Part shown: in pieces, positions 21,001-25,598 of the stretch
Layout: each line of letters starts with the position of its first letter
Numbering within the stretch: the stretch's first letter is position 1
From: Archangium sp.
GTDB lineage: Bacteria > Myxococcota > Myxococcia > Myxococcales > Myxococcaceae
Assembly (NCBI GenBank): GCA_031367385.1
Contig: JANLPS010000457.1
Span: forward strand, 1-25,598
DNA: 25,598 nt
Direction: 5' to 3'
Position numbers: made by a program

Positions 21001-24000
21001 AACACCTGTTTCGACGTCGCGCTCGACCAGTATCAGCGCCTTGGGCCAGACCTCGCGTCAGCCGTCTCGCAGCGCTACCCGTGCTTTTCATACCTGCTGG
21101 CGCGCCATGCCCAGGTCGCGTGGACGACCGACGCCCAATTCACCTGTGAAGCGCGGCGCATCGCCCGCGCAATGGCGGCCAACCAGTCGCAGCCCGTCTA
21201 CCGCTACCGCTACACCCACATCGGCCGAGGCTCGGCAATGACGCTGCTGCGGGCGACGCACACCGCTGAGCTGCCCTTCGTGTTCGACACCGTCGATGCC
21301 TGGGGCGGCGTCGCGACTCCCGCTGAGCAGAAGATGACCAGCGCGTTGCAGAGCTATTGGGCGAGCTTCGCGGGCACCAAGACCCCGCGCGCGCCGGGTG
21401 CTGCTGCCTGGCCCCGGTATACGACCGCGAGCGAACGCGTGCTGGTGCTCGACCAGGAGCCCGCAGCCGCAGCGAAACCCGAATCAGACCCCTGCGACCT
21501 CTGGGACAGCGTTACTCCGGGCTGAGCAGGGTAGCGAGCTCTTCGATTTCGAAGGGCTTGGCCAGGTGATCATCAAAGCCGGCGTTGAGCGCCTCGATCT
21601 TGTCTGACGGCTGGGCGCGGCCGGTCATCGCGATCAGGCGCATCTTCTTGCCAGCGAGCGAGGCCCGCATGCGCTTGGCGACCTCGTAGCCATCGATGTC
21701 AGGCAGCCCGACGTCGATCAGCACCACGTCATACTCGGCCTGCGAGAACTCAGCGACGGCGCCGAGGCCATCACTGGCGGTGGTGACGGCATGACCCAGG
21801 TCTTCGACGAGGGCTTGAAGCGTCTCTCGAAGAATCTCGGAGTCTTCGACGAGCAGAATTCGGAGCTTGGCGGCGGCAGACATTTCGATTGCCACTGTAC
21901 CCGACAGGTGAGGCGTTCGCCTCAATGGTTTCGGCCGGCACCTGGTACCATCGCGCGCACATGGGTGTGCAGCAGGTCGTACAAGAGGCGATGGCGAACG
22001 TGCTCGAAGCCAGGCGTCGCGGTTTGATGCACGTGTCGCTCGAGGGGCGCGAAGGCAAGACCGTCACGCTCCCGGGTGGGCGCAAGGTTCGCGAGTTCAT
22101 CAACTGCAGTTACCTGGGGCTCGACCAGAACCCGCGGGTCATTGCGCGTGGCAAAGACCTCCTCGACGCGTGGGGGGTGCACTTCTGCTCGGCGCGCACC
22201 CGGTTTTCGATCGCGCCCAACCGTGAGCTCGAAGAGGGCCTCAGCCGGTTCTTCGGTGGTCGGGCGATCACCTTCCCCTCGGTGACGGCGACGCACTTGT
22301 CGGTGCTGCCGTTGGTCGCCAGCGGTGCAATCTGGGGTGGCACGCGCCGCAGCAGGCTCATCTTCGACCGCTTTGCGCATGCCTCGATGGCGTCGCTCAA
22401 GGGCATGCTCCGTGAGAGTTGTCGGGTCGAGACCATTGGCCACAATGATCTCGACGCGCTCGAGACCCAGTTCAAAGAGGCCGCCGAGGCGAACGAGTGC
22501 GCCGTGTTCGTCGCCGACAGCGTCTATTCGATGGGGGGGCGCTGCCCGCTCAATGAAGTGCTGGCCCTGGCCGACCGCTACGACGGCAAGCTCTACCTCG
22601 ACGATGCGCATGGCACGTCGATCTTCGGGCCCAGGGGTGAGGGCGCGGTCTTCGAGACGCTCGGCGCGGTCAACCCGCACATCATCTCGACGTTCTCGCT
22701 CTCGAAGGGCTTCGGCACCAATGGCGGAGGCGTCGTGGTGCCCTCGGTACAAGAAGAAGACGTGGTTCGCTTCTTCGGCACCTCGTACGCGTTCAGTGGG
22801 TCACTCGATTATTCGGCGATGGGGGCGGCGATGGCGTCGCTCGAGCTGCACCTCGACGGCACGGTCGCAGGCCTGCAGAAGCGGCTGCACCAGCGAGTGG
22901 CCATGTTCGATGCGCTGCGTGGCACGGCGGCGCACGCCTTCAGCCCGATTCGAATGGTGCCGCAAGCGTCGGCCAGCGCCGCGCTCGAGACCGGTGAGCG
23001 GCTGATCGAGCGTGGGTATTTCGTCTCGGTCGTGATGTTCCCCGTGGTGCCGCGTGATGCGCCGCAGCTGCGGGTGTGCCTGTCGGTCGATCACACCGAT
23101 GACGACCTGAAGGGGCTGTGTGCCGCGCTCGGTGGCTGAGTCGACCCGCGCGCGAGTCGACGCGGAGGCGCCCGAGCTGGTGCGTGCGTTCGCCGAGCAG
23201 CTGCGACGTCGACCCGCGCTCAAGGGCATTTCGCTGCTGGCGGCGCCAGTCACCTTGCCCGTCGCGGCTCGCGCGTTCATCGCCCGGCAGTGCGAGCTGG
23301 TGCGCTCGGCATTGCTTCGAGTCGCCACAGCCGCGCGGTGGAACCTCGAGCTGCCGATGCCGGAGGGCCTGGCTCGACTGGTCGACTCCGAGTCGCTCGC
23401 CTTGCCCCGGCTCGACGCCTGCAGGCTCGACGCGTTCTGTGATGCAGACGGGGGGGCGCTCCAGTTTTTGGAGATTCAGGCCGGAGACCCGAGCGGTCTC
23501 GGCATGGCTGACGCGGCGCTTGGGTGCATGCGGTCTCTTGGCGCGCCGGCCCCGTATTTTTTCGAAGCGCGACGGCAACAGGTGCTTCGACAGTGGCGAG
23601 GGCCAGGGCTCCCACGGGTCGCGGTGGTGAACGAAGACGCGTCGTTCGTGCTCTCTGACACCGAGCTGATGGCCGAGGCGCTGCGCGCGAACGGGCACCA
23701 GGCCCAGCGCGTCGATGCTCGCCGATTCACGTTCGAGGGCGGTCGGCTCGAAGCCGAGGGTGCGCAGTACGACGTGATTCTTCGAGACAGCCACGAAGAG
23801 CTCGGCCCGGCGACAGAAGGCCTCAACCGGGCGCTCGAAGCGGGCCTGCCGCGGTTCAACCCGCTGCGCGACGTGTGGTTCGACGACAAAGGGTGCTTCG
23901 CGATGCTCTGGGAGCAGCTCGGGGCCTTGCCGGCTGACGAGCGCGAAGCCGTTGAACGGCATGTGCCACAGACCGTGCGGGTGACCGACGCATCACGGGC

Positions 24001-25598
24001 CCGCTTGGTCTCCGACCGCCCGGGGTGGGTTCTCAAACCGGCGCAGGGGTACGGCGGGTTCGGGGTGGTGATCGGCCGAGATGTCGATGACGCGACCTGG
24101 AGCACTGCGCTGGTGAGCCCTCGGCGCATGGTGGCCCAGCGGTACGTCGAGGTGCCTCGGCAGCCCGTCGCCCGGGTCGTGGGCGAGGGGGTCGAGTGGC
24201 GCGAACAGTATGTGACCTTGAGCTTCTGGCTCCACCAGGGCCGGTTTTCGGTCGCTTACGCACGCGCCGGCGAGCGCCGAGTCGTGAATGTGCACCAGGG
24301 CGGCGGGCTGGGGCCGTTGATTTTCGAGGGCTGAGGGGCTGGCAGAGTCTCGGAATATGAGAATTGTTACGCCGGGTTGCACAGACCCATTGGGTTGTGT
24401 GTAGAAACGACCATGGCCCCCGTTCGACCGACGACAACCCCTCCGCTGCTGCCGAAGGCGACTGACAAGACCGAAGCACCCAAGGGCGACTATTCGGTCA
24501 AGAAGGGCGACACGCTCGAGAAGATCGCCACGAAATTGGTGACCGACTCCGGCGGCACCGCGACCAAAGCGAACGTCGCGAAGGCCCTGGCTGCGCTCAA
24601 GAAGGCGAACCCAGAGCTCGTCACGGCCGCGCGCGATGGTGGCAACAAGATTCGCATCGGCGATCAGGTCAAATACCCCAAGCTCGACGCGCAGGGTGGT
24701 TGGGCTTCGGCAGGGGCCGCGAGCAACGCAGGCGCTCCGACCAAGGCGAGCGCGGCGGCCGCGAAAGATCAGATGGGCACGCTCAAGCTCGACAAAGAGC
24801 TGACCGAGGCCGCCCGCACGTTCTCGACGAAGCGGCCCACTGCCGACGAGGCCAAGCAGCTCAACGGCCTGCTCGAGCGCATCAAGACCGATGCCCCCAA
24901 GCTGCTCGACACGCCGGCAGCCCGCGTGCTAAGGCCCGGTTGATGCCTGACGCGACCTCAGCCGAGCCACCGCGCCTGCCCGATGACGTGCAGTCGAAGC
25001 CGGCTCGACGCGAGCAGCCCGCTGAAGTCGAGATGGCGCCTCGCCGGCCGCGACAGCCGCTCGAGTAAGTGAAGGCCTCCTCACGAACGCGGCTGCCGGT
25101 CGATCAGGCCCTCACCTCGACCGTCGACAAGGCGTTGAAACGCAACCTGGGCGAGCTTCGTGATTACACCGCCGCTTTTCACGAGCGGTGGCACCGCTGG
25201 GGCGTCACCACCATTCGCGGCTCGGGCTGGTCATTGCGCCCGATGTTCTTGCCGGCGCGCAAGCTTGATTTCGTGGCTGCGTCGCTCCACGCGCGGCTGT
25301 CGGCGTTGCGGCACCACCTGCGCTCGCTCAGTCAGCGGCCAGGGCAGCTCGGCAAGGTGCTACCGCTGCCCAAGGGCTTCGAGCGCGCGATTGATGTCGA
25401 CGCCGGGCTCGCGTCGCAGGAGTGGCTCGCCCACCTTCGCCCCGACGGTTTTCTCTTCGAAGATCGATTCGTGCTCAGCGAGATCAACTTCGGCAATGGT
25501 CTGGCCGTCAGCTGTGGCTACACCGAGGTCGTGCATGACTACTGGCGCGGGCACCCGGTGCTGCGAAAACTGGGGCTGAACGTGGCCCAGCTGCACCG

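What a model noticed while it worked through the whole genome (the two positions that open the first line are those of the whole stretch)
21925..25596. Pearlin cluster pairing a PEARL with two circularly permuted ATP-grasp ligases and an alpha-oxoamine synthase
An alpha-oxoamine synthase, two ATP-grasp-type ligases and an uncalled Pro-rich 41-aa peptide ending in PLE form an operon whose last gene in relatives is a stand-alone short LanB (PEARL; here g02496 on C176). We think amino acids are built onto the scaffold's C-terminal Glu by the PEARL and the ligases and then acylated or released as an aminoketone by the PLP enzyme. This pearlin architecture is not among the described ones.
Evidence so far: g02496 is a 675-aa LanB N-domain-only protein with homologs in 16 of 251 class genomes. 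In 7 of 7 relative loci read it is the last gene of an operon opening with the g03624 ortholog; g03625 and g03627 orthologs were called in 6 of 7 each by my rough ORF caller. The peptide ends in KPVE or RPLE in 7 of 7 relatives, and the uncalled copy here is C280:24943-25068. The g03625 ortholog hits CP_ATPgrasp_2 (E 2e-11; call 149). The oxoamine synthase ortholog is closest to PDB 8xha/8i7u (E 2e-47), far above AONS and SPT; I recall these entries as the glutamate-using Alb29. A metagenome locus keeps synthase, ligase and PEARL with other enzymes. Searches 150 and 153 found no such cluster.
(Added by a program. Inside this text positions count along the whole contig: contig position 1 is position 1 of the stretch shown here. 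"Call 12" and the like, gene names such as g00115 and contig names such as C1 are that model's own, and its searches are not shown. The text may have been shortened before it was handed on; [...] marks where a part breaks off. The agent that wrote the report below was given it as the finding of a first reader that could run no searches.)

Follow-up and report, generated by a model that had tools for sequence, protein, structure and literature searches.

The report
Pearlin pathway with ketomemicin-type enzymes
A conserved bacterial gene cluster joins a tRNA-dependent peptide ligase, two glutathione-synthetase-like ligases and a ketone-forming enzyme to a carrier gene that usually ends in glutamate, and it likely builds a ketone-containing peptide mimic on the carrier's tail, a combination the papers searched do not describe.

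Summary
The cluster is real: oxoamine synthase (AOS), two circularly permuted ATP-grasps, scaffold and a PEARL with all diagnostic residues; the second ligase marks 22 of 301 class genomes and 57 distinct loci in three phyla. Two corrections. The '41-aa peptide' is the tail of a 218-aa LysM-like scaffold gene split here by a one-base deletion (3 of 4 runs carry the extra base; a 70%-identical homolog is one chain ending PLE). One run's contig joins C280 to the PEARL with no IS, so the operon is contiguous and its lesions are polymorphic. Scaffolds end in Glu in 39 of 45 loci; 6 stop one residue short; 8 loci lack one. Non-myxobacterial versions add aldolase, dehydratase and reductase, the ketomemicin enzyme classes. 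Best reading (0.5, untested): the AOS makes a free aminoketone (ketomethylene) block that the ligases and PEARL join to the scaffold tail; the AOS probably does not act on scaffold-bound residues. Bolder reading: the tagged protein itself is the product. The scan noted this operon type twice before on other DNA. New variant of pearlins; interest 0.68.

The parts
21925..23139 (+). Alpha-oxoamine synthase of the PRK07505/Alb29 subfamily (DDAH 226, SLSKG 258 with the PLP lysine, R-x-R at 91-93). Runs X4 and X5 carry a one-base insertion after 22500 that would frameshift it.
23120..24334 (+). Circularly permuted ATP-grasp ligase 1 (start may be GTG 23132); invariant R102, D104, E118-x-Q120, K257, K306, VNVHQGGG.
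24413..24943 (+). N-terminal part of the scaffold gene: Pro-rich start, LysM-like domain and one helical repeat; ends early in this assembly.
24930..24931 (.). Site of a one-base deletion relative to runs X1, X4, X5; it splits a 218-codon scaffold gene.
   Evidence: table 4; homolog P0002
24943..25068 (+).
25069..25598 (+). First 176 codons of circularly permuted ATP-grasp ligase 2 (about 461 aa in relatives; RPDG, EINFGNG). In run X1 the gene continues 852 bases and is followed directly by the PEARL (G000:C176:106-2133, minus strand).

Best explanation
The operon encodes a PEARL, two glutathione-synthetase-fold ligases, an Alb29-like oxoamine synthase and a scaffold that usually ends in Glu, and it likely assembles a ketomethylene (aminoketone) pseudopeptide on the scaffold's C-terminus. 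Module A (inferred): the AOS condenses a free L-amino acid, probably Glu, with an acyl-CoA to give H2N-CH(R)-CO-CH2-R'. In richer clusters a CitE-type aldolase, a MaoC dehydratase and an MDR reductase would supply and reduce a branched C4-dicarboxylyl-CoA as in ketomemicin; in myxobacteria, which lack all three, a primary metabolite such as succinyl-CoA would serve; sphingomonads would use a neighbouring ketosynthase unit. ATP-grasp 1 would act on this small block. Module B (inferred): ATP-grasp 2 and the PEARL, always beside the scaffold gene, would extend the scaffold's last residue and join the block. The Glu-less scaffolds suggest Glu can also be added enzymatically, most simply by the PEARL. 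A hydrolase or host protease would release the product. Shown: genes, folds, catalytic motifs, synteny, scaffold tails. Not shown: any substrate, order, product or release.
For: PEARL-specific Asp and Arg (TglB D542, R803 in PMC11117183) and the BhaB7 ATP-site set (PMC12945691) are present: D402, E424, H426, R562, K607, E657, R659 invariant in 31 of 31; model matches only LanB glutamylation domains (TbtB E 9e-23). Both ligases have the GSS/GspS fold. Of the 14 loci of the non-myxobacterial clade that include the AOS, 14 have an MDR next to it, 10 CitE, 9 MaoC, 3 a KS/YiiD unit instead, 1 neither in the part covered; no myxobacterial locus has any of the three (MDR counted at 38% identity or more; Pfam). 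Ketomemicin uses an aldolase, PLP C-acyltransferase, dehydratase, ATP-grasp ligase, amidinotransferase and dehydrogenase. MDR is fused to ligase 1 in 4 loci. CitE-MaoC-AOS also travels without a PEARL (L122). AOS of richer clusters match Alb29 at E 4e-98 and 1e-103; Alb29 uses L-glutamate. Two modules: in L127 they are divergent, and the window's AOS and ligase 1 are closest to L127 (70%, 51%) while its ligase 2 is 35% to L127 and 68% to L031.
Against: No biochemistry. No Ktm sequence could be compared, and that KtmA, C and F belong to the CitE, MaoC and MDR families is my recall. The window AOS is far from Alb29 (E 6e-55), so Glu specificity is weak. Eight loci (one clade) keep intact enzymes with no scaffold in the cluster, and four queries found none elsewhere in up to 5 of those genomes. 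L127 has no Glu-ending ORF; L046 and L112 show no ligase 1; L067 shows no AOS in the part covered. Minimal clusters have no peptidase or transporter. The Glu-less scaffolds are one derived clade, one event. PEARL specificity cannot be predicted from sequence (PMC9303977); my recalled precedent of an encoded residue in TmoA was wrong.
Confidence: 0.5

Rival explanations
1. Same chemistry, but the tagged protein is the end product: a C-terminal tagging system that would arm a Pro/Lys-rich peptide, a small folded protein or a LysM-like protein with a ketone inhibitor group, with no release step.
For: Scaffold bodies are unrelated: 44-57-aa Pro/Lys peptides, about 100-140-aa folded domain, short Lys/Ala peptides, 218-234-aa LysM fusion; only the tail is shared. 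Myxobacterial clusters have no peptidase or exporter. The Pro-rich/GWxP start also opens unrelated large proteins (L125). PMC9303977 raises this possibility for other pearlins.
Against: Richer clusters carry an alpha/beta hydrolase and often an aminopeptidase P; N-termini of known pearlin carriers are dispensable, which also allows varied bodies; no export evidence.
Confidence: 0.2
2. The enzymes work on small molecules only, like the sinefungin PEARLs, and the scaffold is vestigial or optional.
For: 8 of 57 loci lack a scaffold yet keep full-length enzymes; SinB1/B2 need no peptide and SinA is dispensable.
Against: The scaffold has a good ribosome-binding site in most myxobacterial loci, overlaps the ligase 2 start, and keeps a terminal Glu in 39 of 45 loci across three phyla.
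Confidence: 0.12
3. One reading: residues are built on the scaffold, then the AOS acylates them or releases an aminoketone from the activated scaffold end.
For: No peptidase in minimal clusters, so some release route is needed; a residue joined by a side-chain amine would keep a free alpha-amino acid for the AOS.
Against: An AOS needs a free alpha-amine and a thioester; no CoA ligase or carrier domain is in the cluster; the AOS sits with acyl-CoA-building enzymes and occurs with them without any PEARL.
Confidence: 0.1
4. An amino-group-carrier (LysW-like) route: a ligase links a substrate amine to the gamma-carboxyl of the terminal Glu, and the PEARL extends the alpha-carboxyl.
For: Terminal Glu plus ATP-grasp is the AmCP hallmark (PMC9303977 Discussion); two carboxylates, two ligases.
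Against: Scaffolds are basic, not acidic; ligases are of the GSS fold; 6 scaffolds lack the Glu.
Confidence: 0.06
5. The LanB is the glutamylation half of a split dehydratase.
For: Fold matches TbtB; the genome has one elimination domain.
Against: PEARL-specific Asp/Arg present in 31 of 31; the elimination domain is part of a separate full-length LanB on C455; none in any locus read.
Confidence: 0.02

Closest known systems
Pearlin pathways (tgl 3-thiaglutamate, tmo 3-thiahomoleucine, amm/bha pyrroloiminoquinones)
   Same: LanB-like enzyme without elimination domain, with the ATP-site residues; small scaffold gene beside it.
   Different: Two GSS-fold ligases and an AOS; no MNIO, flavin oxygenase or dedicated protease in minimal clusters; scaffolds basic, folded or LysM-fused; PEARL about 675 aa.
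Ketomemicin (ktmA-F) pseudopeptide pathway
   Same: Same enzyme classes in the richer clusters: aldolase, PLP C-acyltransferase, dehydratase, reductase, ATP-grasp ligase, and in 5 loci a pentein-like protein by motif only.
   Different: Ketomemicin has no scaffold and no PEARL; ligases here are circularly permuted; orthology to Ktm proteins was not testable.
Alb29 of albogrisin biosynthesis (PDB 8XHA, 8I7U)
   Same: Closest solved AOS (E 6e-55 window; 1e-103 richer clusters); shared R-x-R loop.
   Different: No PEARL context reported in the passages read; substrates here unknown.
Sinefungin PEARLs SinB1/SinB2; NRPS-associated PEARL SnaE
   Same: PEARLs that need no ribosomal carrier, a model for the scaffold-less clade.
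   Different: Most loci here keep a coupled scaffold; no NRPS or nucleoside enzymes.
Amino-group carrier proteins (LysW, Vzb22)
   Same: Carrier with C-terminal Glu and an ATP-grasp ligase.
   Different: Basic carriers, GSS-fold ligases, a PEARL, Glu absent in one clade.

Membership tests
PEARL | LanB glutamylation-like domain without elimination domain | tested here: met
   PF04738 only; model matches TbtB, MibB, NisB N-domains; no elimination gene in loci read
PEARL | ATP-site Asp and Glu-x-Arg (Tyr/Leu in split LanBs), conserved Arg, His, Phe, Lys | tested here: met
   mapping to TglB/BhaB7 is by motif and spacing, not by direct alignment
PEARL | ATP- and aminoacyl-tRNA-dependent C-terminal extension | not testable with these tools
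   needs assay
Pearlin pathway | Ribosomal scaffold gene with the PEARL | tested here: met
   45 of 57 distinct loci; 8 lack one
Pearlin pathway | Protease that releases the product | tested here: inconclusive
   none in myxobacterial clusters; hydrolase and aminopeptidase P in richer ones
Split LanB dehydratase | Partner elimination protein and Tyr/Leu at the PEARL sites | tested here: not met
Alpha-oxoamine synthase | Fold-type I PLP enzyme with D-x-A-H and PLP lysine | tested here: met
   (18 of 18 orthologs)
Alpha-oxoamine synthase (Alb29 type) | Uses L-glutamate | not testable with these tools
   similarity only
Circularly permuted ATP-grasp | GSS/GspS fold with R-x-D, E-x-N(Q) and Lys motifs | tested here: met
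   ligase 1 has Gln for Asn
Ketomemicin pathway | Aldolase, dehydratase, C-acyltransferase, reductase together | tested here: inconclusive
   classes present in 9 of 14 non-myxobacterial AOS loci, absent from the window and all myxobacterial loci; orthology not tested
Ketomemicin pathway | Scaffold-free assembly with an amidinotransferase | tested here: not met
   scaffold and PEARL present; pentein-like gene in 5 loci by motif only, no Pfam or PDB hit
Amino-group carrier protein system | Acidic globular carrier with obligatory C-terminal Glu | tested here: not met
   basic scaffolds; Glu missing in 6 of 45

The most novel reading that the evidence does not exclude
A portable C-terminal arming system: a PEARL and two GSS-fold ligases bolt a ketomethylene or epoxyketone protease-inhibitor group onto any protein that ends in the tag, and the armed protein, here a peptidoglycan-binding LysM-like protein of a predatory-family bacterium, is the product. 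It would also give the first Glu-loading PEARL among those listed in the papers read.
Probability: 0.18. Interest if true: 0.87.

Novelty: new variant of a known kind. Interest (0 to 1): 0.68.

Why it matters
It would join three known logics, tRNA-dependent extension, ATP-grasp ligation and PLP C-C bond formation, on one ribosomal scaffold, and predicts a new family of ketomethylene pseudopeptides, a class with only ketomemicins and arphamenines as natural members in the paper read. PEARLs are thought to descend from GSS-type ATP-grasps; here both sit in one operon. A tag that tolerates unrelated protein bodies is of direct use for C-terminal labelling. The minimal version is four enzymes and a 50-aa peptide, and two cultured sphingomonad strains carry a version (L071, L072), so it is cheap to test.

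Tried and rejected
Complex prediction of PEARL with the folded scaffold (L065 pair, alignments): no answer, score 0.01 against a mark of 0.32. No RNA holder listed. Search for a scaffold elsewhere in scaffold-less genomes: two DNA patterns and two profiles over 5 genomes each gave only matches at control level, inside other proteins or between genes; the profile search had no positive control. Rest of ligase 2 not in the assembly. PDB sequence search gave nothing for the PEARL or ligase 2. Atlas: no named family for the folded scaffold; TauD/CsiD lead under 0.9 for one accessory protein. IS end not named by a plasmid search; 'IS4-like' is my recall of the motif. PEARL hits on Streptomyces plasmids, including S. 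albogriseolus, lie in NRPS clusters with no AOS in the two regions read, so no sign that the albogrisin cluster already pairs the two. My recalled precedent that TmoA encodes its first Cys was wrong. The tree is the quick one, careful search unfinished.
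Full report
Observation. The AOS passes the cut-off of NF005697 and its best solved match is 8xha, E 6e-55, which PMC11906848 names as Alb29, a glutamate-using AOS (passages). Ligase 1 orthologs hit CP_ATPgrasp_2 in 16 of 17. 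The LanB-like gene fills contig C176 (675 aa).

PEARL membership. PMC11117183 (passages) gives an Asp and an Arg that separate PEARLs from split LanBs; PMC12945691 (passages) lists the modelled ATP site of BhaB7. The matching motifs are invariant in 31 of 31 aligned orthologs (D402, E424, H426, R562, K607, E657, R659 in this strain); the mapping is by motif and spacing. An ortholog model (pLDDT 91.2) matches only LanB N-domains. The genome's one elimination domain belongs to a full-length LanB on C455.

State of this copy. Four public runs were laid; three may be sources of this DNA, and X4 and X5 look like one data set. In X1 a single 8,808-base contig covers window 21800-25598 and the PEARL with 852 bases between and no IS; 852 bases is what ligase 2 lacks. 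In X3, X4 and X5 the PEARL runs into a multi-copy IS, which supplies an in-frame start; X4 and X5 contigs go 889 bases past the window end, which fits a complete ligase 2 plus a short target duplication (inference). X1, X4 and X5 have one more base after 24930, which puts the LysM-like ORF and the 41-codon ORF in one frame of 218 codons. An independent homolog, P0002 (234 aa, 70%), is one chain ending GKPLE, and the repeats of a paralog on C68 end in the residues read in the shifted frame. X4 and X5 also have an insertion in the AOS. So an intact allele and damaged alleles coexist; whether the window's allele still works is open.

Distribution. The PEARL matches 79 of 301 class genomes at E 1e-10, mostly distant PEARL-like genes; the ligase 2 profile matches 22 of 301, all in the window's family. 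G082 (unpublished) is only part of these tallies. Of 20 regions around the best PEARL hits, 19 have ligase 2, 18 ligase 1 and 17 the AOS; one has the PEARL alone. Scans of species genomes and metagenomes gave 40 and 25 loci, including Acidobacteriota and Alphaproteobacteria; 84 loci collapse to 57 at 97% identity.

Scaffolds. 45 of 57 loci have a scaffold ORF coupled to the ligase 2 or PEARL start; 39 of 45 end in Glu, against 509 of 10,351 ORFs in this genome. Bodies differ wholly: Pro/Lys-rich peptides of 44-57 aa, a folded domain of about 100-140 aa with no named family, short Lys/Ala-rich peptides, the LysM fusion. Against a strict rule: 6 scaffolds stop at RPV or RPM, one derived clade whose sister ends RPVE; 8 loci, one clade, have no scaffold in the cluster and none was found elsewhere in 5 of those genomes; 4 gave none or were not covered; L127, found later and outside the 57, has a 213-aa ORF ending in Ala.

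What the richer clusters add. All 14 loci of the non-myxobacterial clade that include the AOS have an MDR reductase right after it; 10 have a CitE-type aldolase, 9 a MaoC dehydratase, 3 a ketosynthase/thioesterase unit on the other strand instead, and 1 neither in the part covered; myxobacterial loci have none of these. Many add an alpha/beta hydrolase, a 2OG oxygenase and a TauD-like protein (lead only); 5 have aminopeptidase P and 5 a pentein-like protein by motif. The ketomemicin cluster is described as aldolase, PLP C-acyltransferase, dehydratase, ATP-grasp ligase, amidinotransferase and dehydrogenase (passages of 10.1101/2024.10.29.620863 and PMC13514850); the families of KtmA, C and F and the order of steps are my recall of Kawata 2017, which I did not read. 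The AOS of these clusters is much closer to Alb29 (E 4e-98, 1e-103). CitE-MaoC-AOS occurs without a PEARL on a plasmid. MDR is fused to ligase 1 in 4 loci. In L127 AOS and ligase 1 face away from ligase 2 and the PEARL, and the window is a mosaic of the two histories.

Mechanism. I commit (0.5) to two modules. The AOS makes a free aminoketone from an amino acid, probably Glu, and an acyl-CoA: a branched C4-dicarboxylyl unit where aldolase, dehydratase and reductase are present, a primary one such as succinyl-CoA where all three are absent; the result is a ketomethylene dipeptide mimic that ligase 1 works on. Ligase 2 and the PEARL extend the scaffold end and join the block; Glu may be loaded enzymatically where it is not encoded. 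All chemistry is inferred.

Novelty. Nine literature searches listed no paper on a PEARL cluster with an AOS or GSS-fold ligases; I judged most from listings. I read passages of the papers cited above and of PMC9239090, 10.1101/2025.09.03.674030 and PMC11212132, the abstract and introduction of PMC11962472, and no supplements; cluster surveys in supplements or subscription papers could show this architecture. Verdict: new variant of the pearlin kind, works partly like ketomemicin, interest 0.68.

Noticed in passing
G000:C68:17064-18321 (minus strand): 418-aa paralog of the scaffold's body: LysM-like domain plus four helical repeats, Pro-rich start, no PLE tail.
   Followed up: partly
L001:1-95 and 2121-2237: Two different multi-copy elements (about 1.39 and 1.44 kb in run contigs) flank the PEARL gene; the upstream one ends at many contig ends of this genome.
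   Followed up: partly
G000:C455:39457-44229: Full-length class I LanB followed by a likely LanC, unrelated to this cluster.
   Followed up: no
L069:11457-16484, L071, L072, L101: Convergent unit of double ketosynthase, YiiD thioesterase, aldo-keto reductase and enoyl-CoA hydratase after the PEARL in the loci with Glu-less scaffolds.
   Followed up: partly
L061:11664-14753, L082:4172-5365, L098, L100, L101: About 400-aa proteins with pentein-like motifs (WxxD, EGGN, HxD, GGxHC; recalled motifs, no Pfam or PDB hit), often beside aminopeptidase P.
   Followed up: partly
L063:11371-13320, L065, L094, L103: B12-dependent radical SAM gene on the opposite strand next to the PEARL in four Acidobacteriota-type loci.
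   Followed up: no
L038:10918-11238, L046, L078, L112, L127: Unknown 100-200-aa protein inserted between scaffold and ligase 2 in the deep-branching myxobacterial loci.
   Followed up: no
L041:11764-16602 and 7 relatives: In the scaffold-less clade an opposite-strand gene for a likely secreted 320-aa protein separates ligase 2 from the PEARL, and in the 7 loci clustered an M28 peptidase follows the PEARL.
   Followed up: partly
L122:10637-15621: CitE-MaoC-AOS-MFS-cyclodeaminase-like operon without a PEARL on a Ralstonia plasmid; product unknown.
   Followed up: partly
L125:1474-2808; G000:C91: Pro/Thr-rich N-termini with a GWxP-like motif, like the scaffold peptides, open unrelated large myxobacterial proteins; possibly an export signal.
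   Followed up: no
window 21512-21925 (-), 19840-21525 (+), 15917-17296 (-): Single-domain response regulator divergent from the operon, a carboxylesterase and a beta-helix protein; not conserved beside the cluster in the relatives read.
   Followed up: no
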